This document shows, piece after piece, positions 1,761 through 57,754 of a stretch of DNA of 64,000 nucleotides. Position numbers and translations under genes: made by a program. Positions within the stretch are counted from its first letter, which is position 1; the number at the start of each line of letters is the position of its first letter. The notes under the pieces are model-generated. The model did not search any database. It was not told the DNA's origin and saw nothing but the letters and a program-made list of their open reading frames with translations. Source of the DNA: Propionibacteriaceae bacterium (GTDB taxonomy: Bacteria > Actinomycetota > Actinomycetes > Propionibacteriales > Propionibacteriaceae); the NCBI GenBank assembly GCA_027492545.1, contig JAPUEL010000042.1, positions 88,286 through 152,285 of the forward strand, in the 5' to 3' direction.

Positions 1761-2711
1761 CTATCCCCGGGCCAGCTGCTCCTCCACTAATGCCTTCGCC
1801 GTCCGCAGCGCCTCAAATTGTGGGCTCACGTCCTCCCGACGCCAGCCGGACAGGCCGCACGCCGTCCCGAGCAGGAGCCCGTCCAGCGAGTCCACCTGGA
1901 TCGCCCGGAACACCTGCAGAGAGGCCCTGACGAGGTCGTCGACGGTCTGGGGCCCCCGTGCTGTGTCGACGACACCGAGGATCAGCCCGCGACCCTCGTC
2001 GCGCCACTGTGCCAGTTCATCGAGGTCAACCAAGGCCGCATCCACCGAGACCCCGGCGAAGCCGGCGCGCTGCGCGACGTCCACCCAGCGTCCAGGCGCG
2101 CAGCAATGCAGCCAGGAGCCGTCGGCCAACGGCCGCAACGCCTCGACGAGGGCGGGCATGTCCACACGACGATGCCTCGAAAAGCCGCTGGCCGTCGGCA
2201 CGCGCCCCTCTGCCACCGCCAGCAGCGACGGCTCGTCGATCTGCACCCACACCGTGGCGCCCGGCACCCGCCGCGACACCTCCGCCCGCAGGCCGGCCAC
2301 CCCCTCCAGCAGGGCCTGCGCGAGCTCGCGCCGGGCTCCATGGTCCGCCAGCAGCCGATCGCCCATCGGCCGCTCGACGGAGGACGCCAGGGTCCATGGA
2401 CCGGCAACGCCGATCTTCAGCACGCCGTCGAACCCCTGGAGGAGTTCCTCGGCGTCGTCGAGGTCTCGCCGCCACTGGGCAACTGCCCGGCGGTGGTCGG
2501 CCCCTGGATTCGGCACCAGCCGCCACCCGGCGGGTTGGAGGTCGAAGCCGAGGCCCGAGACCAACCCAAGAGCCCGCCCGATCATGTCCGATCCGACGCC
2601 CCTCGCGGGCAGCTCAGGCAGCGGTAGCACCTCAGGGAGTGCCTCCGCCATGGCGGTGAGGGCGCCGCGGAAGTCGGTGCCAGGCAGGGATCCGGCGGCC
2701 GTGATGAGCAT
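1761..2711 (-). CDS. Cobalamin-independent methionine synthase catalytic-domain-like (URO-D/MetE superfamily) protein
   Basis: GSLPG at the N-terminus, PELPARG, QIDEP, HCC and GTACGL putative Zn ligands; start overlaps the mnmA stop (TGATG). Confidence 0.8.
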   Translation of the reverse strand: MLITAAGSLPGTDFRGALTAMAEALPEVLPLPELPARGVGSDMIGRALGLVSGLGFDLQPAGWRLVPNPGADHRRAVAQWRRDLDDAEELLQGFDGVLKIGVAGPWTLASSVERPMGDRLLADHGARRELAQALLEGVAGLRAEVSRRVPGATVWVQIDEPSLLAVAEGRVPTASGFSRHRRVDMPALVEALRPLADGSWLHCCAPGRWVDVAQRAGFAGVSVDAALVDLDELAQWRDEGRGLILGVVDTARGPQTVDDLVRASLQVFRAIQVDSLDGLLLGTACGLSGWRREDVSPQFEALRTAKALVEEQLARG

Positions 2712-3784
2712 CAGCGGGCCTCGGCGATCACAGCGCTGCCCACCACGCGGTCGCCGTCGTAGACCACGACGGTCTGCCCTGGGGCCACGCCGTGCCCGGG
2801 CTCGTCGAGCATCACCGACAGTCCCGCATCAGTCGCCTGGATCGTTGCGTCCTGCGGTACGCCGTGCGCCCGGTACTGCGCCTGCCCACGCCACGGGCCC
2901 ATCATCGGGTCCTGCGTCCAGGTGGTGCGGATGCCGGTGAGGCGGGTCACGGCGAGCTCCTCGCGTGCCCCCACCACCACGGTGCTGGTGGCGGGCTCGA
3001 TCCGCAGCACGTAGCGCGGCTCCCCCGTCGGCGCCGGCACGCGGAGGTCCAGCCCCTTGCGCTGCCCGACGGTGTAGCGGTGTGTCCCGCGGTGCTCCCC
3101 GAGGACGGCGCCGTCGGCGTCCACGATCGGGCCAGGATCGTCGTCCAGGTAGCGGCCGAGGAAGCCCTGGGTGTCGCCGTCGGCGATGAAGCAGATGTCG
3201 TGGCTATCGGGCTTCTTCGCCACCCCCAAGCCGAGAGCCTGCGCCTCGGCACGGACCAGCGGCTTCTCCACGTCATGGAGCGGGAACAGGCAGCGCCGCA
3301 GCTGCTCCTGGGTGAGCATGCCGAGCACGTAGGACTGGTCCTTGGCATGATCCGCCGCCCGGTGCAGCGACATCGAACCGTCGCCCTCGCGGCGCAGGTC
3401 GGCGTAGTGCCCGGTGGCCACGGCATCGAACCCGAGCGCCATGCCGCGGTCGAGCACCGCGGCGAACTTGATCTTCTCGTTGCAGCGCAGGCACGGGTTG
3501 GGTGTACGGCCGGCGCGGTACTCGGCCACGAAGTCCTCGACGACGGCCTCGCGGAACTGCTCGGCGAAGTCCCACACGTAGAAGGGAATGTCCAGCTTGT
3601 CCGCGACCCGCCGGGCGTCGTGCGAGTCCTCGAGCGAACAACAGCCACGCGCGCCAGAGCGGTAGGACTCAGGGTTCTTCGACAGCGCCAGGTGTACCCC
3701 GGTCACATCGTGACCCTCCGCGACGAGGCGCGCAGCAGCGACGGCGGAGTCCACCCCGCCCGACATCGCGACCAACACCCGCAC
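2711..3784 (-). CDS. mnmA: tRNA-specific 2-thiouridylase
   Basis: [10 protein letters not shown]-loop, [38 protein letters not shown]; start placed at GTG 3784 after SD GAGGAG. Confidence 0.97.
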
Positions 3785-3812
3785 TTGGCTCTCCTCTGCT
3801 CGGCAGTGCTCC

Positions 3813-3818
3813 ACTCTA
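3813..3818 (-). promoter_or_regulatory. Putative -10 element (TAGAGT) for mnmA
   Basis: TAnnnT hexamer about 30 nt upstream of the mnmA start, inside the segment that separates mnmA from iscS. Confidence 0.5.
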
Positions 3819-3945
3819 CCGACTGCGCCTTCGCGTACCGACGCGCCAGGAGGCGCCGAATCAAGCACCCAGAACCTGCTTCGCTACCTCGGAGAGCGTG
3901 CGCAGCCCCCGAAGCCCCGCGCAGGTGCTCCCCGCGCCCTCCGAC

Positions 3946-3954
3946 TTATCCACA
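3946..3954 (+). promoter_or_regulatory. Perfect DnaA box (TTATCCACA)
   Basis: Exact 9/9 consensus match, 21 nt upstream of the promoter of the DUF222-HNH gene. Confidence 0.55.
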
Positions 3955-3975
3955 CCCTTCGCGCAGCCGCAGAAA

Positions 3976-3998
3976 TTGTCAGTGAGTGCTAATAGAGT
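3976..3998 (+). promoter_or_regulatory. RecA-NDp / PafBC-type DNA-damage-inducible promoter
   Basis: TTGTCAGTG-AGTGCTAA-TAGAGT matches tTGTCRgtg-N8-TAnnnT exactly; ATG follows 6 nt later (leaderless). Confidence 0.75.
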
Positions 3999-4004
3999 GT
4001 CTCC

Positions 4005-5441
4005 ATGGTCAACAGCACGCCCACCCCTCTGGTCCCCGTTTCGGTGGCCGAGGGCTACGCGGCGCTGGACCACGCCCACCAGCAGCTCGTGGCGGCGGAG
4101 ACCGCCGAGATCATCGCCATCGCGCATCTCACCGACGTCTACCGGGTGGATCAGGACGCCGTGATTGTCGGCATGGAAGACCTGATCCAGCCCGGCGCGG
4201 ACGGCACCCCCAGTATCGGCGAGTTTCTCTCACTGGAGGTGGGCGCCCTGCTCGGGATCTCGCCACTTTCGGCCATGGGCCGGATCGGTGATGTCCTCAA
4301 CGTCCGCCACCGCCACCCTGTCCTGTGGGAAGCGGTGCTCGCCGGGCGGGTGCGCTGGTGGCAGGCGGCAGACGTCGCCGGGCGCGCCCAGCACCTCACC
4401 GCCGCCTCCGCCGCTCTCCTGGACCGCAGGCTCGCCCACGCCATGGCCCTGATGCCTTGGGCCCGGGTACTGCGCAACCTCGACGGCTGGATCCTCGCCG
4501 CGGACCCCCAGACTGCTGCTGAGGCCGAGGCTCGGCATCGCACCGAGCGCAAGGTCGTCCTCAACCAGATCCGAGACGGTCACATCGAAATCTGGGGACG
4601 CCTCGCCCCGGCGGACGCACTCGCCTTCGACCAGGCCATCAACGAGATCGCCAAGACCCTGCCCCCGATCCTCAGCGCAGACAACTCCCCCTTGGCCGGC
4701 CTGCCGTCAGGAGAAGTGGCCCGGATGGATCTTCAAACCCGCCGCGCAGCCGCCGTCGGTGCGCTGGCGCGGCAGGCGTTCGGGCAGGACGCCCTGCCCA
4801 CCCACCAGCTGATCGTTCACATCACCGCGTCGGACGCGTGGCTCACCGGAGACGCGGCGCCCGGCCCCGCACTCCTGCCCGACGGTTCCGCCACCGGCGT
4901 CGCCCGCGTGGAACGCTGGGGATGCCTGCCCACTGATCGTCTGCGGGAGTTGCTGGCCGATTCCCGGGTGATCGTGCGCCCCGTCCTGGATCCCAACTCG
5001 GTCACTGCCGTGGATCAGCACGATCCGCCGGACGTGATGCGGCTGGCGCTCGCCCTACGAAACCCGGTCGACGTGTTCCCCTACGGCACGCGCGTCGCCC
5101 GTGGCTGCGACGCGGACCACACCAGCCGCTACATCCACGATGGGCCCCCAGGCCAAACCTCGATGGACAATCTCGGCCCCCTGTCACGGTTCACGCATCG
5201 AGGCAAGACGCACGGCGGCTGGCGCCTGACACAACCAGTGCCGGGCGTGTACCACTGGAGGTCTCCGGCCGGGTTCGAGTATCTGGTCACGGCCCAGGGC
5301 ACTGTCAGGCTCCATTCGCCCACACCGCCGACGCGCCTGTGGGCGGAACCCGCCCGCGTCCCACCGGATCCGCCACCCGAGGACCCGGCCTGGGACATCT
5401 ATCCCGACCATCGCGCGGCCGGCCACATCCTCGCCGCCTGA
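4005..5441 (+). CDS. DUF222 (13E12-repeat family) protein with C-terminal HNH-like endonuclease domain
   Basis: Helical N-terminal region (EFLSLEVGALLGIS, RHRHPVLWEAVLAGRV); C-terminal CDADH...DNLGPLSRFTHRGKTHGGW followed by WRSPAG. Confidence 0.85.
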   Translation: MVNSTPTPLVPVSVAEGYAALDHAHQQLVAAETAEIIAIAHLTDVYRVDQDAVIVGMEDLIQPGADGTPSIGEFLSLEVGALLGISPLSAMGRIGDVLNVRHRHPVLWEAVLAGRVRWWQAADVAGRAQHLTAASAALLDRRLAHAMALMPWARVLRNLDGWILAADPQTAAEAEARHRTERKVVLNQIRDGHIEIWGRLAPADALAFDQAINEIAKTLPPILSADNSPLAGLPSGEVARMDLQTRRAAAVGALARQAFGQDALPTHQLIVHITASDAWLTGDAAPGPALLPDGSATGVARVERWGCLPTDRLRELLADSRVIVRPVLDPNSVTAVDQHDPPDVMRLALALRNPVDVFPYGTRVARGCDADHTSRYIHDGPPGQTSMDNLGPLSRFTHRGKTHGGWRLTQPVPGVYHWRSPAGFEYLVTAQGTVRLHSPTPPTRLWAEPARVPPDPPPEDPAWDIYPDHRAAGHILAA

Positions 5442-5549
5442 CACCACCCGCCGGCGGAGGAGTCTGCCCCCGCGGCTTCCTTGGGTTCATCGCGCGTCGT
5501 CCGCGACCTGCCCGACTTCACCGGCTCCGTCGAAATGACCTCCGCTGAC

Positions 5550-6014
5550 CTATGCGCGCGCCACGATGGCCCGGTCGAGCATCGACCGCGCCGCCTCAAG
5601 CGCGCCTTGGGGGTAGAACGGGAGCCCTTCGTGGCCGAGTGCGTCCAGCCGGTGCCAGGCCACAGTGCTCGGATCGTCATTGACGCCAACACGGTCGTCG
5701 AGCGACCACACCGCGAGCGCCGGACACTCGATGGCGAAGATGTGCACGATCTCGTGTCCCGGCACCCCGAGGAAGGTGAAGATGTTCTCGGTCACCGCAA
5801 GCAGCCGCTCGCCCGTGACCTCCACACCGAGTTCCTCTCTGAACTCGCGCCGCAGCGCGTCCGCCGCGCGCTCGCCAAACTCGATGCCCCCGCCGATTGC
5901 CCGCACGAAGGGGGGCTCCCCCTTCGCACCGCCGAACTCCTGCACGAGCACGTGTCCGTCGCGCACGGGGAGCCCGACGGCGAGGTTGCGGATGCGCGGA
6001 TCGGCTTGGCCCAT
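5550..6014 (-). CDS. Nudix hydrolase
   Basis: Nudix box GGGIEFGERAADALRREFREELG; start placed at ATG 6014, 6 nt after a TACGCT -10 hexamer. Confidence 0.88.
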   Translation of the reverse strand: MGQADPRIRNLAVGLPVRDGHVLVQEFGGAKGEPPFVRAIGGGIEFGERAADALRREFREELGVEVTGERLLAVTENIFTFLGVPGHEIVHIFAIECPALAVWSLDDRVGVNDDPSTVAWHRLDALGHEGLPFYPQGALEAARSMLDRAIVARA

Positions 6015-6231
6015 GGTTGGAGCGTAGACCCGTCCTCGCGCCAGCAGGCGACGGCGAACAAGGGGGACCAACGCGCCGACGCGACATGGGCACGAGGGTG
6101 GGGGACGGCAGGGCGGCTGGGCGCAGGGATGCCCAGCCCTTGGGTCACCCGAAGGAACCCGCCTGAACAGACTGGTGCCAGGGCCGCCCTGACGGCGCGC
6201 ACACGGACCCGGCCGCGCCACAGGAGAACCA

Positions 6232-6352
6232 GTGTCGGGAGACGTGGGACGAGGCACGGGCGGCCTCAACTACCGGACCCCAGCGCAACGCGCGGCGAGC
6301 ACGCCGACGGTGGACACAAGCCGCCCGTGCCTCGTGTCACGGCTCCCGGCAC
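6232..6352. repeat. Long imperfect inverted repeat (33-nt arms, 55-nt spacer)
   Basis: 6236-6264 versus 6320-6348 is 26/29 complementary, with a perfect 16-bp core (6249-6264 / 6320-6335); GTGT/GCAC extends the stem with one G.U pair. Confidence 0.85.
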
Positions 6353-6401
6353 CCGCAGCGCCACCGGGGACGGCGCACGCAAGTGCAGCCACCGGGGAGA
6401 G

Positions 6402-7583
6402 TCAGAAGGCTGAGCGGGCCACCGACAGCGCCTCGGGCAGCACCGCGAGCAGCCGGTCCACGTCGGCCGGCGTTGTCGTCCATCCCAGCGAGAAGCGCAG
6501 ACTCTGCGTCGCCTCGTCGGGCGTCCGGCCCATCGCCAGCAGCACCTCGCTCGGCTGATGCACCCCAGCGCGACACGCGCTCCCCACCGACGCGGCGATC
6601 CCCCGCTGGTCCAGGAGGAACAGCAGGTCGTCGGCGCGCACCCCGTCGAACGTCACGTTGAGTATGTGGGGCGCCCCGACCGGTGGGGCTCCACCCACCC
6701 CTTCCGTACGCTGGCTCGATTCCTGCCCGCCACTCGTGGGCCGGGGCCAGCTGTTCAACCGCCCGCCCGCCGCGACACACGCCTCCGCCACCCGGTCCCG
6801 CAACGCCGACAGCCGTGCGGCCTCGGCGGACAACTCCCCCACTGCGACACTCGCGGCCCGCGCGAACGCTGCCGCCAACGCCACCGGCTGGGTGCCGGAC
6901 CGCACCTCGCGCTCCTGCCCACCCCCCAGCCCGACGGCAGCGGGCACAACCGAGCGCCGCACCAGCAGCGCCCCCACACCCACCGGCCCACCGATCTTGT
7001 GCGCCGACACACTCATCAGGTCCACGCCACTGGCACCGAAGTCCACCGGCACGTGCCCCAACGCCTGCACCGCATCCGTGTGCATCCACGCCCCCACCGA
7101 CCCTGCCAACTTCCCCACCTCAGAAACCGGCTGCACGACCCCCGTCTCGTTGTTCACCCACATCACAGACACCACCGCCACGGCCTCATCCAGCGTCTCC
7201 TCGAGAGCGCCCAGCGACACCACGCCCTCAGCACCCACCGGCAGCACCTCGGCCCCCCGCGACACCGCCCCCTTCACCGCCGGATGCTCGACGGCCGACA
7301 CCAGCCATCGCGACCGCCCCCGCGAGCGTCCGGCCTCCCAACCCCCCAGCACCGCGATCGTGTCAGCCTCGGACCCGCCCGAGGTGAAGATCACCTCAGA
7401 GTGGCTCGCCCCGACGGCAGCCGCCAGCTCCTCGCGCGCCTCCTCCAACCGGCGCCGGGCCCGTTGCCCGGGCCGGTGCAGGGACGAGGCGTTCCCCACC
7501 AGCCCGGACGCCGCGACGAACGCCTCCAACGCCTCCGGGCGCAGCGGCGAGGTGGCGGCGTGATCGAGATAGACGGGCTCCAT
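6402..7583 (-). CDS. iscS: Cysteine desulfurase (IscS/NifS class V aminotransferase)
   Basis: YLDHAATSP, FTSGGSE, NNETG, HTDAVQA, SAHKIGGP (PLP Lys), SVGSAC (catalytic Cys); SD GGAGG before ATG 7583. Confidence 0.93.
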   Translation of the reverse strand: MEPVYLDHAATSPLRPEALEAFVAASGLVGNASSLHRPGQRARRRLEEAREELAAAVGASHSEVIFTSGGSEADTIAVLGGWEAGRSRGRSRWLVSAVEHPAVKGAVSRGAEVLPVGAEGVVSLGALEETLDEAVAVVSVMWVNNETGVVQPVSEVGKLAGSVGAWMHTDAVQALGHVPVDFGASGVDLMSVSAHKIGGPVGVGALLVRRSVVPAAVGLGGGQEREVRSGTQPVALAAAFARAASVAVGELSAEAARLSALRDRVAEACVAAGGRLNSWPRPTSGGQESSQRTEGVGGAPPVGAPHILNVTFDGVRADDLLFLLDQRGIAASVGSACRAGVHQPSEVLLAMGRTPDEATQSLRFSLGWTTTPADVDRLLAVLPEALSVARSAF

Positions 7584-7745
7584 AAGCCACCCTCCGGGCA
7601 CGGGCGACGCGGTGCGCGCCGCCCCGAACAAGCATCCATGCTAGCCACGGGATTCCGCGTGCAAACCCCCCAGCGAAGTGGAGTTTGGACCAGAAAGTGG
7701 CACAATGGGGCGCCGCCGAAAAAACGATTCCGCCGAAAGCAGACG

Positions 7746-46096: not shown

Positions 46097-47231
46097 GGCG
46101 CTCCTGGGCGGCCTCGTCGGGATCCACGGCCACCCCGGCCGGTGCCGAGCGCATGGGCCGGACGGTCAGGCCGAGGACGGTCAGCAGTGCGAGGCCGACG
46201 ACCCACCCCATGTAGGGCCAGCTCGACAGCGCAACCGCCACCAGGCCCACCGACACCACGGCCGTCCAGCCGTACATGAGCAGCACGGCCCCCCAGTGCG
46301 AGTGGCCCATCGCGAGCAGCCTGTGGTGCAGGTGCTGCTTGTCGGCGTGGAAGACGTGCTGCCCCTTCCAGGTGCGCCGGGCCCAGGCGAGGATCAGGTC
46401 GGCGATGGGCAGCGCCAGGGCGGCAAGCGGCAGGAGGATGGGCAGCAGGGCGGGCAGCAGGTTGCCGTCCTGCTGGTCCGTCGCGCCGGGATCGAGTTGG
46501 CCGGTGAACGAGATGGCGCTCATGGCCATCAGCAGCCCGAGCAGCATCGCCCCCGAATCCCCCATGAACATCTTCGCCGGGTGGAAGTTGTGCAGCAGGA
46601 AGCCCGCCGCGATGCCGCAGGTGGCCACCGTGATGAGGCTCGCCGTGGTGGCCCGGACCAGCTCCTGCTCGTAGGCGAGCACGTAGGTGTAGCTGAAGAA
46701 GGCACCCGAGCCGATGGTCACCACGCCCGCCGCGAGCCCGTCCAGCCCGTCGACGAAGTTGACCGCGTTGACGCACAGGGCGATGAAGAACACCGTGATC
46801 AGGATGCTGGTGACGTCGTCCAGCGCGACGATCCTGTTCGGCAGCGGGATCCAGTAGATCCGCACCCCCTGCAGCACCGCGACCCCCGCGGCGAGCACCT
46901 GCCCGCCGAGCTTGACCATGGCCGGCATGTCGTACTTGTCGTCGAGCACCCCGATGACCGTGATGATGAGGCCGGCCCACACCACAGCCCACGCATCGTG
47001 TTCCACCGTGGTGTAGCGGCCCAGGAACGGCATCTGCAGGGCCAGCAGGAACGCCACGACGAGGCCGCCGAACATGGCGACGCCGCCGAAGTACGGGATG
47101 GGCTCGGTGTGGACGTCGCGGCTCCGGACCGAGGCGAGCGCCCCGGTGCGGACCGCGATGCTCCGGGCCAGGCCCGACAGGAGGTAGGTCGTGCCGGCGG
47201 CGACCAGCAGCACCAGGAGGTATTCGCGCAT
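46089..47231 (-). CDS. wecA: Undecaprenyl/decaprenyl-phosphate GlcNAc-1-phosphate transferase (WecA/Rfe, GT4/MraY family)
   Basis: PIPYFGG, GVLDD, NAVNFVDGLDGLA, FMGDSG, ADKQHLHH. Confidence 0.92.
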   Translation of the reverse strand: MREYLLVLLVAAGTTYLLSGLARSIAVRTGALASVRSRDVHTEPIPYFGGVAMFGGLVVAFLLALQMPFLGRYTTVEHDAWAVVWAGLIITVIGVLDDKYDMPAMVKLGGQVLAAGVAVLQGVRIYWIPLPNRIVALDDVTSILITVFFIALCVNAVNFVDGLDGLAAGVVTIGSGAFFSYTYVLAYEQELVRATTASLITVATCGIAAGFLLHNFHPAKMFMGDSGAMLLGLLMAMSAISFTGQLDPGATDQQDGNLLPALLPILLPLAALALPIADLILAWARRTWKGQHVFHADKQHLHHRLLAMGHSHWGAVLLMYGWTAVVSVGLVAVALSSWPYMGWVVGLALLTVLGLTVRPMRSAPAGVAVDPDEAAQERRG

Positions 47232-56491: not shown

Positions 56492-57754
56492 ATGACCCAC
56501 TCCAGGTTGGCCGCCGTCCCCACCGAGCGGTGGGCGGTCGCCGTCGGACTCATCGCCACGTTCCTCCTCACCCGCTACATCTCGTCTCTGTTCCTGGGCC
56601 TCGACGAGGTGAAGTTCGTCGCCAACGACGTCTCCTACTACGGCTATCACCTGTTCCGTCTCGACGAGGGCGAATCGGGCGTCATGGTCGAGTATCCGGT
56701 GCCGGCCGTGTGGATCCTGCAGGCCATCTACCGGCTGGGTGGTGGATGGCAGACGTGGGGTGCCCTCTACGTCTCGGTGTTCGTGCTCCTCGACGCTCTG
56801 GTCGCGATCACCCTCTACCGCCGCGACAACGCCGCCGGCGCACTCTTCTGGATCCTCTTCACCGCCGCGCAGGGGCCCATCCTCTGGTACCGCTTCGACC
56901 TGATCCCCGCCGCCCTCGTCGCCTGGGCGTGCCTGTTCGTGACCCGCTTCCCGCGGGTGGCCGGCGCGATGGTGGGTCTGGGGGCCGCGATCAAGCTGTG
57001 GCCGGCGCTCCTGATCGGTCCGATGCTGGCGCCCCACCCGTGGCGCTCGGCCCGGGCGCGCGGCCGGGTGATCGGGTTCGTGGTGGTCGGCTTCGGGCTC
57101 GCGGCCGCATCGTTGATCAGCAGCGGATGGACCCGCTCCGCCTCCCCGGTGACGTGGCAGGGTCAACGCGGGCTCCAGATCGAGTCGGTGCCCGCCTCTC
57201 CGCTGATGCTGCTACGCACCTTCACCGACAACCCGTCGTGGAACATCTTCCTGTCGCCGTTCAACGCCTTGGAGCTTCAGGGCCCGTTCGTGCAGGCGCT
57301 GCTCCAGGTCTCGACGGTGCTGACGGCTCTGTCGCTGGCCACCGCCGCGTACCTCAGCTACCGCCTCATCCGCCACCTCCACGACGACGACGAACGCCTG
57401 CACGAGGCCATCCTCCTGGCCAACCTCACCATCGTGCTGGCCACCATCGTGACCAACAAGACGCTGTCGCCCCAGTACATCGCGTGGCTCGGCGGTCCTG
57501 TGGCCGCCCTCCTGGTGGCCAGGAGCAGCGCCTGGCTGCGGCGGCCGCTCATCGTGTTCGGAGTCGCCCTGGTCCTCGTGGGGGTCCTGACGCAGATGAC
57601 CTACCCCTGGGGCGCCTACGGCATCATGGCCATTCCGCTCGGCTCCGGCCCCGAGACCGCGGTCCTCCTGCTGCGCAACCTCATCCTCGTGTGCCTGACC
57701 GCCTACGCCTTCACATTGACGGTGAAGGCCAGCAGACCCCCGATGCCGAGCTGA
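56492..57754 (+). CDS. GT87/DUF2029-like polytopic membrane glycosyltransferase (GT-C fold)
   Basis: NDVSYY, VEYP, RFDLIPA, IKLWP, LQIES, KTLSPQY. Confidence 0.75.
   Translation: MTHSRLAAVPTERWAVAVGLIATFLLTRYISSLFLGLDEVKFVANDVSYYGYHLFRLDEGESGVMVEYPVPAVWILQAIYRLGGGWQTWGALYVSVFVLLDALVAITLYRRDNAAGALFWILFTAAQGPILWYRFDLIPAALVAWACLFVTRFPRVAGAMVGLGAAIKLWPALLIGPMLAPHPWRSARARGRVIGFVVVGFGLAAASLISSGWTRSASPVTWQGQRGLQIESVPASPLMLLRTFTDNPSWNIFLSPFNALELQGPFVQALLQVSTVLTALSLATAAYLSYRLIRHLHDDDERLHEAILLANLTIVLATIVTNKTLSPQYIAWLGGPVAALLVARSSAWLRRPLIVFGVALVLVGVLTQMTYPWGAYGIMAIPLGSGPETAVLLLRNLILVCLTAYAFTLTVKASRPPMPS

What the first reader, a model, noticed from the sequence alone, without database searches (positions are those of the whole stretch)
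3946..5441. DUF222-HNH gene under an exact PafBC-type (RecA-NDp) promoter with an adjacent perfect DnaA box: candidate damage- and replication-responsive selfish nuclease unit
Seen: TTATCCACA (3946-3954), then TTGTCAGTG-N8-TAGAGT (3976-3998), then ATG 6 nt later, in an intergenic region that also holds the divergent mnmA promoter. Known: tTGTCRgtg-N8-TAnnnT is the LexA-independent DNA-damage promoter of mycobacteria, activated by PafBC. DUF222/13E12 proteins are multicopy actinobacterial proteins with no established function. Inference: this copy is made from a leaderless mRNA on DNA damage, possibly gated by DnaA. A nuclease-domain gene between normally adjacent genes with such control could be an uncharacterised mobile or homing element, or a domesticated repair factor. 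This is my best candidate for an undescribed system here.
Basis: partly seen in the sequence, partly recalled or inferred. Interest (0 to 1): 0.75.

Follow-up and report, generated by a model that had tools for sequence, protein, structure and literature searches.

The report
Damage-inducible DUF222 nuclease gene, recA-type promoter
This is an ordinary member of a large actinobacterial family of DNA-damage-induced nuclease-like genes, but the DnaA-type box in its promoter sits at a fixed distance from the PafBC element, as it also does in the recA promoters of Streptomyces and other Actinobacteria, and I found no paper describing that shared layout.

Summary
ORF 4005-5441 encodes a 478-aa DUF222/13E12-family protein. 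Its C-terminal HNH-type core keeps the catalytic His-Asn-His residues but has lost three of the four zinc ligands.

The promoter (TTGTCAGTG-N8-TAGAGT, ATG 6 nt later) is the only exact PafBC-type motif in the window. It is kept in 5 of 6 ortholog lineages, and 38 of 74 paralogs across Propionibacteriales carry it, always in a leaderless layout. This gene-promoter link is already published for M. tuberculosis 13E12 genes, so the core idea is not new.

The gene was inserted between iscS and mnmA, which are adjacent in four related species. It now sits in that slot across its clade under purifying selection (dN/dS about 0.2) and has no terminal repeats. That fits an old insertion, not an active mobile element.

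The TTATCCACA box is the unexpected part. It is conserved at -59 in the closest orthologs. A metagenome scan found the same box 19-24 nt upstream of PafBC elements in 20 of 30 independent high-GC lineages (P = 2e-8). The genes downstream include recA (confirmed in a Streptomyces isolate), a radA-like gene and other DUF222 genes. The protein that binds the box is unknown; DnaA is the leading candidate.

The parts
3946..3954 (+). DnaA-type box TTATCCACA, 21 nt upstream of the PafBC element (about -59 to -51 from the predicted transcription start)
   Evidence: Read. Identical, and at the same 59-nt distance from the ATG, in orthologs L081 and L086 and in a further relative seen as a loose end in run X2. 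No variants are listed in it among near relatives, while 3853-3938 is rich in indels (65 further variants were not displayed). The same box 19-24 nt from PafBC elements occurs in 20 of 30 independent high-GC lineages.
3976..3984 (+). PafBC -26 element TTGTCAGTG (core TGTCAG at 3977-3982, with the GTC triplet)
   Evidence: Consensus tGTCgg(N10)tA(N3)T with a strictly conserved GTC comes from PMC8635444. Kept in L082, L083-85, L086 and L087; degenerate in L081.
3993..3998 (+). -10 hexamer TAGAGT (TAnnnT)
   Evidence: A TAnnnT hexamer sits at the same place in all six ortholog lineages. No -35 consensus partner was found.
4005..4005 (+). Predicted transcription start = the A of the ATG (leaderless mRNA); inferred, not mapped
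   Evidence: The ATG lies 6 nt after the -10 and there is no Shine-Dalgarno sequence. All 38 paralogs with the motif have a start codon 5-7 nt after the -10. RNA-run contigs cover only ORF-internal stretches and none upstream of 4038 (weak evidence).
4005..5441 (+). DUF222/13E12-family ORF, 478 aa, stop codon included
   Evidence: AlphaFold2 pLDDT 89.8. dN/dS 0.17-0.24 against close orthologs.
4221..4970 (+). DUF222 (PF02720) match, residues 73-322; mostly helical, fold without a solved relative
   Evidence: Pfam E 2.7e-9. Foldseek against PDB and BFVD found nothing significant.
5064..5222 (+). HNH-type beta-beta-alpha-metal core, residues about 354-406: C368, D371-H372 (5115-5120), N389 (5169-5171), H398 (5196-5198). 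Zinc ligands are replaced (DVFPYG in place of CxxPxC; LS in place of LC)
   Evidence: Alignments A1 and A3. Colinear BLASTP to a Georgenia DUF222-HNH protein (E 8e-39) and to a Tsukamurella protein with a PF01844 hit (E 3e-13). C-terminal model pLDDT 96.2 with beta-beta-alpha order. 187 of 187 close relatives lack the CxxC.
2711..3784 (-). mnmA (tRNA 2-thiouridylase), divergent neighbour; likely start is the GTG at 3784, preceded by GAGGAG
   Evidence: Pfam. 357-aa homologs. Sequence reading.
3813..3818 (-). -10-like TAGAGT of the mnmA promoter
   Evidence: Kept as TAGAGT or TACAGT in L081, L082, L083 and L086, and as TAGACT in the empty site L090. This makes it ancestral, not part of the insert.
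5550..6014 (-). NUDIX hydrolase gene, a second cargo gene in the same slot (absent in L083-85)
   Evidence: Pfam. Start read. Contexts.
6402..7631 (-). iscS-like cysteine desulfurase ORF (start uncertain), the gene normally adjacent to mnmA
   Evidence: tblastn to the L081 Aminotran_5 gene, 79% identity. Empty sites L089-L092.

Best explanation
ORF 4005-5441 encodes a member of the large actinobacterial DUF222/13E12 family. It has a helical N-terminal domain of unknown fold and a C-terminal HNH-type (beta-beta-alpha-metal) nuclease core. The core keeps the catalytic Asp-His...Asn...His residues but has lost three of the four zinc ligands.

The gene is read from a PafBC-dependent (RecA-NDp) promoter with no -35 element. 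After DNA damage, single-stranded DNA activates PafBC. PafBC then docks between the -26 element (TGTCAG, 3977-3982) and sigma-A region 4 of RNA polymerase held at the -10 (TAGAGT). Transcription starts at the A of the ATG, giving a leaderless mRNA. The nuclease-like protein is therefore made together with recA and the rest of the damage regulon.

The TTATCCACA box 21 nt upstream of the -26 element belongs to the promoter. The same box at the same spacing precedes recA in Streptomyces and other Actinobacteria. Some factor bound there, DnaA being the obvious candidate, probably modulates this class of PafBC promoters.

The promoter-plus-ORF cassette entered the iscS-mnmA junction in an ancestor of this Tessaracoccus-like clade. 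It has since been inherited vertically under purifying selection.

Shown here: the motifs, their conservation and spacing, the insertion, the selection on the protein, and homology to HNH domains.

Inferred: PafBC binding and damage induction, the transcription start, nuclease activity, and which protein binds the box.
For: Motif and layout. PafBC consensus and mechanism: PMC8635444 and PMC11804915.

Ortholog conservation of GAAATTGTCRGTG-N8-TAnnnT-N5-7-ATG in 5 of 6 lineages, despite dS of 0.64-0.87 among the closest orthologs and about 0.9-1.06 to the more distant ones.

Paralogs: 38 of 74 carry the motif against a background of 0.0145 per region, and all are leaderless.

Published precedent in M. 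tuberculosis 13E12 genes: PMC3381160 and PMC13157036.

A Propionibacteriaceae species (P. freudenreichii) is in the published alignment of the PafB HTH and the recA motif.

HNH homology and catalytic residues.

Box conservation and spacing. Box upstream of recA.

Insertion and empty sites.

Purifying selection. Native base composition.
Against: There are no expression data under DNA damage and no mapped transcription start. RNA runs give only scattered ORF-internal fragments.

PafBC was not found in the window and could not be sought in the rest of this genome.

The closest named ortholog (Tessaracoccus sp. Z1128, L081) has a degenerate -26 element (GTC shifted by 1 nt) while keeping the box and the -10.

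Pfam's HNH model does not hit this protein. Foldseek finds no HNH structure even for the confident C-terminal model. Loss of the zinc site may mean the domain no longer cuts DNA.

The conserved box reads TTATCCACA, not the TTGTCCACA that I recall as the actinobacterial DnaA-box consensus (own knowledge). This weakens the DnaA assignment.
Confidence: 0.7

Rival explanations
1. Active selfish element. The promoter-plus-HNH cassette would still be a mobile or homing unit that uses damage-induced expression to cut a target and copy itself by recombination.
For: The family is multicopy, with several copies per genome in varied contexts. Within-genome paralog pairs share 80-92% nucleotide identity over a unit made of about 20-125 nt of upstream sequence, the ORF and a short tail. 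The cassette sits inside an otherwise contiguous iscS-mnmA pair. M. tuberculosis REP13E12 copies are described as repeats or insertion elements (PMC3381160; PMC10589994).
Against: In this clade the gene holds one fixed slot across proteins 63-97% identical. dN/dS is 0.17-0.24. No terminal inverted or direct repeats flank it in the window. No near-identical copies were seen in any genome. GC content equals that of the neighbours. It is absent from phages, with only 2 weak plasmid hits. Only one copy lies in this 64 kb.
Confidence: 0.12
2. The box is not a DnaA site. It would be bound by another, unidentified factor, or would be an extra upstream contact of the PafBC-RNA polymerase complex. It would then be a structural part of one class of PafBC promoters and would not report replication status.
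For: The spacing to the -26 element is strict: 19-24 nt in the metagenome lineages, and 21-22 nt in the nine Propionibacteriales promoters with a box in that range. This is about three helical turns, so the box faces the same side of the DNA as the PafB site, which is typical of factors that touch the transcription complex. High-GC genomes keep TTATCCACAG, not the TTGTCCACA recalled as the actinobacterial DnaA-box consensus (consensus from my own knowledge). The box shares TTrTC with the -26 element.
Against: The published PafBC ChIP motif has no upstream part, and in the published structure the PafC HTH contacts sigma region 4, not DNA. PafB reads the G of GTC, whereas the box has ATC. TTATCCACA is the textbook high-affinity DnaA box. 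In some paralogs boxes also occur in the other orientation or at other distances (L044, L053, L074), as DnaA sites do.
Confidence: 0.4
3. Anti-phage or anti-plasmid defence nuclease switched on by a WYL-type regulator.
For: WYL-domain regulators control several defence systems (titles). An HNH-type nuclease that is silent until single-stranded DNA appears would suit abortive defence.
Against: No PADLOC model hits it. It has no defence-island neighbours: mnmA, a NUDIX gene, iscS and glycogen genes surround it. Its promoter is shared with recA and radA-like repair genes.
Confidence: 0.05
4. The motifs are chance matches in an AT-richer intergenic region, and the ORF is a decaying remnant.
For: Judged by the window alone, the DnaA box is not enriched. 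Pfam's HNH model is not matched.
Against: The motifs are conserved across orthologs at dS of about 0.7. The motif is strongly enriched in paralogs. The spacing statistic is P = 2e-8. The ORF is intact with dN/dS of about 0.2 and invariant catalytic residues.
Confidence: 0.02

Closest known systems
M. tuberculosis 13E12 repeat family (REP13E12; Pfam DUF222 with C-terminal HNH), e.g. Rv1128c, Rv1148c, Rv1945, Rv3466
   Same: Both match PF02720. Both have a C-terminal HNH-type core that aligns colinearly. Both are multicopy within genomes. Both are driven by RecA-NDp (PafBC) and/or LexA-box promoters and are reported as DNA-damage-induced (PMC3381160; PMC13157036). Paralogs here show the same dual control.
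   Different: This Propionibacteriales subfamily has lost the CxxC and the fourth zinc ligand (187 of 187 close relatives), and Pfam's HNH model no longer detects it. This copy has only the PafBC-type promoter and no SOS box. It carries a DnaA-type box at fixed spacing, which I did not find described for the M. tuberculosis genes. In its clade it is a stable copy in a conserved position.
recA P1 / RecA-NDp promoter of Actinobacteria (PafBC 'sigma adaptation' promoters)
   Same: Both have a -26 element with GTC, 12 nt further on a TAnnnT -10, and no -35 (PMC8635444). The Streptomyces recA promoter has the identical three-part layout, TTATCCACA-N23-TTGTCAGTG-N8-TAGCGT (L215:1403-1457).
   Different: recA has a 5' leader of about 37 nt, and in Streptomyces an SOS-like box lies further upstream. 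This gene is leaderless. The upstream box is not part of the published PafBC motif.
DnaA-regulated promoters (DnaA boxes near promoters, as in E. coli and B. subtilis replication-stress genes; from my own knowledge)
   Same: A perfect 9-mer, TTATCCACA, lies close to a promoter of a genome-maintenance gene.
   Different: No DnaA binding has been shown here. The strict spacing to an activator site is unusual for DnaA boxes. The sequence differs at position 3 from the actinobacterial consensus as I recall it.
Free-standing HNH homing endonuclease genes
   Same: An HNH-type nuclease gene inserted between conserved neighbours, with empty sites in relatives.
   Different: There is no intron, intein or phage context, no defined target site and no flanking repeats. 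It is conserved in the same position under purifying selection. It has a large non-nuclease N-terminal domain.

Membership tests
PafBC-dependent (RecA-NDp) promoter | -26 element tGTCgg with invariant GTC | tested here: met
   TGTCAG at 3977-3982; consensus from PMC8635444.
PafBC-dependent (RecA-NDp) promoter | Fixed spacing (N10 after tGTCgg) to a TAnnnT -10 | tested here: met
   TGAGTGCTAA, then TAGAGT at 3993-3998. It is the only zero-mismatch hit in the window.
PafBC-dependent (RecA-NDp) promoter | No canonical -35 element | tested here: met
   The sigma-70-type scan of 3700-6500 found 0 sites.
PafBC-dependent (RecA-NDp) promoter | Conserved in orthologous promoters | tested here: met
   Kept in 5 of 6 ortholog lineages, degenerate in L081. 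No variants are listed in the element among near relatives.
PafBC-dependent (RecA-NDp) promoter | Organism encodes PafB/PafC | not testable with these tools
   Only 64 kb of this genome is available. A published alignment includes the PafB HTH and recA motif of Propionibacterium freudenreichii.
PafBC-dependent (RecA-NDp) promoter | Induced by DNA damage in a PafBC-dependent way | not testable with these tools
   This needs RT-qPCR or reporter assays. RNA runs give only ORF-internal fragments.
DUF222 / 13E12 repeat family | PF02720 match above the gathering score | tested here: met
   37.2 bits against a cut-off of 24.4, residues 73-322.
DUF222 / 13E12 repeat family | C-terminal HNH domain detected by PF01844 | tested here: not met
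   No hit even at E<=10. Only 3 of 21 relatives hit weakly, best E 0.008.
DUF222 / 13E12 repeat family | C-terminal region homologous to an HNH domain, with H-N-H residues | tested here: met
   Colinear BLASTP to a Tsukamurella DUF222 protein whose residues 431-475 hit PF01844 (E 3e-13), and to a Georgenia DUF222-HNH protein (E 8e-39). D371, H372 and H398 are invariant and N389 is kept in at least 90%. The model has beta-beta-alpha order.
DUF222 / 13E12 repeat family | Cys4/Cys3His zinc site of the HNH domain | tested here: not met
   Only C368 remains. CxxPxC has become DVFPYG and LC has become LS. 187 of 187 close relatives lack the CxxC.
DUF222 / 13E12 repeat family | Several copies per genome | tested here: inconclusive
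   Relatives have 2-4 copies per genome. This window holds one copy, and the rest of the genome was not seen.
HNH (beta-beta-alpha-metal) nuclease fold | Structural match to solved HNH nucleases | tested here: inconclusive
   Foldseek against PDB found nothing at E<=0.001 for the full model or for the C-terminal model with pLDDT 96. The motif is very small, so a miss is not decisive.
DnaA box / DnaA-regulated promoter | 9-mer matching TTATCCACA | tested here: met
   Exact match at 3946-3954.
DnaA box / DnaA-regulated promoter | More frequent than chance within the window | tested here: not met
   1 exact hit; 3 hits at up to 1 mismatch against 1.8 expected.
DnaA box / DnaA-regulated promoter | Conserved and recurrent at a defined position | tested here: met
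   At -59 in the window, L081 and L086, and seen next to the mnmA -10 in a relative from run X2. 11 of the 13 TT[AG]TCCACA sites in 818 kb lie upstream of DUF222 genes. Spacing of 19-24 nt in 20 of 30 lineages, P = 2e-8. Spacing of 21-22 nt in 9 Propionibacteriales promoters.
DnaA box / DnaA-regulated promoter | Bound by DnaA, with output dependent on DnaA | not testable with these tools
   Needs EMSA, footprinting, ChIP and genetics.
Homing endonuclease / mobile element | Empty sites in relatives | tested here: met
   iscS and mnmA are adjacent (34-77 nt apart) in T. palaemonis, T. bendigoensis, T. antarcticus and A. propionica.
Homing endonuclease / mobile element | Terminal repeats or target-site duplication | tested here: not met
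   No flanking repeat pair stands above background in 3700-6500. The intergenic flanks are too diverged to align with the empty sites.
Homing endonuclease / mobile element | Recent copies, or presence/absence variation within a lineage | tested here: not met
   Paralog pairs share at most 92% nucleotide identity. The slot is conserved across the clade. dN/dS is 0.17-0.24.
Anti-phage defence system | Match to a known defence protein model | tested here: not met
   PADLOC gave 0 families.

The most novel reading that the evidence does not exclude
A DnaA-type box (TTATCCACAG) held about three helical turns upstream of the PafBC -26 element defines an undescribed three-part promoter class. The class is shared by recA, radA-like, FtsK-like and DUF222 nuclease-like genes in Streptomyces, Propionibacteriales and other Actinobacteria. 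Through it DnaA, or an unknown factor with the same specificity, would couple the state of the replication initiator to the LexA-independent DNA-damage response.
Probability: 0.35. Interest if true: 0.75.

Novelty: new variant of a known kind. Interest (0 to 1): 0.5.

Why it matters
The gene itself adds little. DUF222/13E12 genes under RecA-NDp and LexA control are known from M. tuberculosis, and here the pattern simply extends to Propionibacteriales (38 of 74 paralogs). The family remains one of the largest groups of damage-induced genes with no assigned function: 19,531 cluster representatives match the profile.

Two things are worth carrying forward. First, there is a coherent subfamily without the zinc site that keeps the catalytic residues under purifying selection. 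It is a clean test case for whether these proteins cut DNA at all.

Second, and more important, the DnaA-type box is a conserved part of the promoter at fixed spacing, and it is shared with recA promoters, including those of Streptomyces, a model genus. If a protein binds there, the PafBC 'sigma adaptation' promoters have an extra input that the published motif and structures do not include. This can be tested directly with existing reagents: DnaA and PafBC proteins, and recA reporters.

Tried and rejected
- NCBIfam, PADLOC and PHROGs scans of the protein found no families.
- tblastn against phages found nothing, and against plasmids only two weak hits.
- A PDB sequence search with a profile of the family found nothing meaningful.
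- Foldseek of the full model against PDB and BFVD, and of the C-terminal domain against PDB, returned only noise. The DUF222 fold stays unassigned and HNH membership rests on sequence.
- An exact-protein look-up of the window's protein found it is not on record.
- Mapping the transcription start from public RNA runs failed. Only a few ORF-internal Logan contigs exist, and none are informative about the 5' end.
- I looked for an SOS box at this copy. None is present by reading, and window-wide hits at up to 2 mismatches lie elsewhere.
- I looked for terminal repeats or a target duplication around 3700-6500 and found nothing above background.
- I considered whether the box is the -35 of the divergent mnmA promoter. 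In L081 and L086 it lies 18-19 nt from mnmA's -10, but in the window it is 127 nt away while staying exactly 59 nt from the DUF222 ATG. Rejected.
- I considered AT-rich intergenic composition as the cause of the box enrichment. Dinucleotide shuffles and GC-matched control windows argue against it: 0 exact boxes in 339 control windows.
- The PafBC-like site with one mismatch at 57209-57231(-) lacks the final T of the -10 and has no start codon nearby. I treated it as chance.
- Ten literature searches found no paper linking a DnaA box to recA or PafBC promoters or to DUF222 genes. The library omits most subscription-journal papers, so earlier description cannot be excluded.
Full report
**Observation.**
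- TTATCCACA is at 3946-3954.
- TTGTCAGTG is at 3976-3984. An 8-nt spacer follows, then TAGAGT at 3993-3998, then 6 nt, then ATG at 4005.
- That ATG opens a 478-codon ORF ending at 5441.

The exact RecA-NDp pattern is unique in the 64 kb. It is also the only zero-mismatch match to the ChIP-derived PafBC consensus tGTCgg(N10)tA(N3)T (consensus from PMC8635444). No sigma-70-type -35/-10 pair exists in 3700-6500, as expected for a PafBC promoter. Within the window alone the DnaA box is no more than chance.

The divergent gene is mnmA. Its real start is most likely the GTG at 3784, behind a GAGGAG. A -10-like TAGAGT on the minus strand at 3818-3813 is also present in relatives that lack the insertion.

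**The protein.** Pfam gives DUF222 (PF02720, residues 73-322) and nothing else, even at E<=10. NCBIfam gives nothing.

Homologs are numerous in Propionibacteriaceae: Tessaracoccus, Brooklawnia, Arachnia, Propioniciclava and Enemella. The best named one is Tessaracoccus sp. Z1128 at 77% identity. A profile of the subfamily reaches 19,531 50%-identity cluster representatives at E<=1e-3.

The alignments show an invariant D371-H372-T373 and H398-R399, and a nearly invariant N389. These sit in the block RNPVDVFPYGTR.A..CD.DHT...GQT..NLGPLSR..HR.KTHGGW.

Two relatives tie this block to HNH domains.
- A Georgenia plasmid protein annotated 'HNH endonuclease signature motif containing protein' aligns colinearly along the whole length (E 8e-39). 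At the same place it shows the canonical C.FPGC...CDADH...N..LCRGHH.
- A Tsukamurella DUF222 protein, whose residues 431-475 reach Pfam's HNH gathering score, aligns to residues 343-456 (E 3e-13).

The C-terminal domain is therefore homologous to HNH. It keeps the catalytic residues but has lost three of the four zinc ligands (only C368 remains). This holds for 187 of 187 close relatives.

AlphaFold2 models are confident (pLDDT 89.8 for the full protein, 96.2 for the C-terminal part). They place D371-H372 on a strand, N389 just before the next strand and H398 on the following helix. Foldseek found no significant match in PDB or BFVD for either model. The structural test is inconclusive and the DUF222 fold remains unassigned. 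PADLOC, PHROGs and phage genomes gave nothing.

**The promoter is real and conserved.** Five further ortholog lineages were recovered (61-80% protein identity; L081, L082, L083-85, L086, L087).
- Four of them, like the window, keep GAAATTGTCRGTG-N8-TAnnnT followed by ATG 5-7 nt later.
- Only the Z1128 copy (L081) has a degenerate -26 element.
- This holds although synonymous divergence is 0.64-0.87 among the closest orthologs.
- Among near relatives in metagenome runs, the variants listed in the promoter fall only in the spacers (3985, 3988, 3999, 4001). The stretch 3853-3938 is full of indels (65 further variants were not displayed).

Across 74 paralog loci from Propionibacteriales genomes, 38 have the PafBC consensus (at most 1 mismatch, GTC intact) just upstream of the start. 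The background is 0.0145 per region. All 38 have a start codon 5-7 nt after the -10, so they are leaderless.

About two-thirds of the paralogs (48 of 74 at a loose threshold with a high background) have a LexA-type box, often a perfect TCGAACACATGTTCGA overlapping the ATG. Eighteen have both motifs.

This is the same dual control already published for M. tuberculosis 13E12 genes. They are described as induced by DNA damage and as containing RecA_NDp, and many are bound by LexA (PMC3381160; PMC13157036).

PafBC itself could not be looked for in this genome. A published alignment of the PafB DNA-reading residues and the recA motif includes Propionibacterium freudenreichii.

**Insertion and mobility.** In the window the gene order is mnmA(-), DUF222(+), NUDIX(-), iscS-like(-). 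The same slot is occupied in Z1128 and in three metagenomic lineages. One of these lacks the NUDIX gene, and another has an additional Flp-type gene.

In T. palaemonis, T. bendigoensis, T. antarcticus and Arachnia propionica, iscS and mnmA are adjacent and co-oriented, 34-77 nt apart. In Tessaracoccus sp. ZS01 the junction holds different cargo, a LysR gene and a PF03601 gene. The cassette was therefore inserted, and this junction accepts insertions repeatedly.

Within other genomes, paralog pairs share 80-92% nucleotide identity. The shared unit consists of roughly 20-125 nt of upstream sequence, the ORF and a short tail, so the promoter travels with the gene.

Nothing suggests activity now.
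- The window has no flanking repeats.
- GC content equals that of the neighbours.
- dN/dS is 0.17-0.24.
- The gene holds its position over proteins 63-97% identical.
- There is only one copy in this window.

**The DnaA-type box.** This part of the finding turned out better than expected.
- GACTTATCCACA is identical, and exactly 59 nt from the ATG, in the window, L081 and L086. Its distance to mnmA's -10 changes from 18-19 nt to 127 nt between them, so it belongs to the DUF222 promoter.
- In 818 kb of fetched Propionibacteriales DNA plus the window, TT[AG]TCCACA occurs 13 times. Eleven of these lie upstream of DUF222 genes and the other two lie next to DUF222 genes.
- Shuffles and GC-matched control windows exclude a composition artefact.
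- In promoters of PafBC type, box-like 9-mers cluster at a spacing of exactly 21-22 nt from TTGTCRGTG in nine loci from at least six lineages.

In the 80 loci returned, the gap is 19-24 nt in 53. After collapsing related sequences, 20 of 30 high-GC clusters have that gap, against 5.8 expected from a uniform distribution (binomial P = 2e-8).

The genes downstream are:
- recA, in at least six lineages whose RecA proteins are only 74-83% identical to each other;
- further DUF222 genes;
- an FtsK/SpoIIIE-type ATPase;
- at longer gaps, a RadA-like protein and a YgjP/WLM-type metallopeptidase.

The largest recA group is Streptomyces (94-96% identity to named RecA proteins). A Streptomyces isolate genome reads TTATCCACA-N23-TTGTCAGTG-GCAGGCGT-TAGCGT about 44 nt upstream of the recA ATG (L215:1403-1457).

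The box is thus a component, at fixed spacing, of one class of PafBC promoters and not a private gate on a selfish gene. The published PafBC motif and structures do not include it, and ten literature searches found no description of it. The library lacks most subscription journals, so older descriptions cannot be excluded.

What binds the box is not known. DnaA is the obvious candidate from the sequence. Two points argue for caution: the strict spacing, and the preference for TTATCC over the TTGTCC that I recall as the actinobacterial DnaA consensus.

**Mechanism.** The published PafBC steps, applied to this promoter by inference, are as follows. PafBC activated by single-stranded DNA inserts between the -26 element and sigma-A region 4, and turns on promoters that lack a -35. 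Here that would produce a leaderless mRNA starting at A4005, encoding a DUF222 protein with an HNH-type core.

Fragments of the ORF, but not of the upstream region, occur in a few metatranscriptome assemblies. This is weak support for expression in the environment. Whether the zinc-less core still cuts DNA, and on which substrate, is open. Purifying selection on the catalytic residues suggests that it does.

**Verdict.**
- Right but already known: a damage-responsive, leaderless DUF222 gene.
- Right for the past only: the insertion.
- Wrong for the present: an active mobile or homing element, and an undescribed system.
- Real but reinterpreted: the DnaA-type box, which is part of a shared three-part promoter that also drives recA.

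That last point is the only part with real novelty potential, and it is directly testable.

Noticed in passing
L215:1403-1457 (Streptomyces isolate, GCA_041021105.1); also L095-L173: The Streptomyces recA promoter reads TTATCCACA-N23-TTGTCAGTG-N8-TAGCGT, the same three-part layout as the window's DUF222 promoter. An SOS-like TCGAACATCCATTCTGA lies about 80 nt further upstream. recA genes from at least six lineages, with RecA proteins 74-83% identical to each other, share the layout.
   Followed up: partly
L010:3853-3946 and 5466-5559; upstream regions of L005-L010, L047, L050, L057, L073, L077: In Arachnia propionica a DUF222 copy is flanked by a 94-nt inverted repeat (82% complementary). Cores of a REP-like palindromic element (...GGTCGAGCC...GTCGAGACC...) cluster within about 600 nt upstream and just downstream of DUF222 genes in several genomes (about 18 of 35 hits). 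The window has none.
   Followed up: partly
L032:3844-3930: A run of closely spaced repeats of the PafBC -26 element (at least four TTGTCAGTG plus variants such as TTGTCTGTG and TTGTCGGTG) lies immediately upstream of a DUF222 paralog that also has an SOS-like box over its start.
   Followed up: no
L019, L020, L053, L064, L080 and other paralog loci, around the start codon: In many paralogs the LexA box (TCGAACACATGTTCGA) contains the ATG of a leaderless mRNA. The operator therefore dictates the first codons, and the proteins begin MFE or MFD.
   Followed up: partly
window 3785-6401; L088:3009-4971: The iscS-mnmA junction is a repeatedly used insertion slot. It holds DUF222 alone (L083-85), DUF222 plus NUDIX (window, L081), DUF222 plus NUDIX plus a Flp-type gene (L082), or an unrelated LysR plus PF03601 pair (Tessaracoccus sp. 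ZS01).
   Followed up: partly
window 6232-6264 and 6320-6352: A 33-nt inverted repeat (88% complementary, 55 nt between the arms) lies in the 387-nt non-coding stretch between the NUDIX start and the iscS stop. In L082 a Flp/Fap pilin-type gene lies between NUDIX and iscS.
   Followed up: no
L131:645-721 and L151:2354-2430: These two metagenome contigs have clusters of DnaA boxes in both orientations (for example TAGTTATCCACAGGTTTATCCACAGGCATCTGTGGACAATG) next to a PafBC-like motif. They look like oriC or dnaA-promoter regions rather than damage promoters.
   Followed up: no
window 4038-5502: Short contigs from metatranscriptome runs (activated sludge, wastewater, fish gut) match ORF-internal stretches at 95-100% identity. 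The neighbouring mnmA and NUDIX genes are almost absent from the same runs. This hints that the gene is expressed in the environment.
   Followed up: partly
window 57209-57231 (-) and 47158-47179 (-): Two PafBC-like sites with one mismatch each. Both lack a proper TAnnnT and have no start codon nearby, so they are probably chance.
   Followed up: partly
L021:3880 and L038:3730: Two paralogs with SOS-type promoters and no PafBC element still carry the box (TTATCCACA and TTGTCCACA). It lies 39 and 36 nt upstream of the -10, close to the 38-40 nt seen in the PafBC composite. The box may therefore be positioned relative to RNA polymerase and not relative to PafBC.
   Followed up: no
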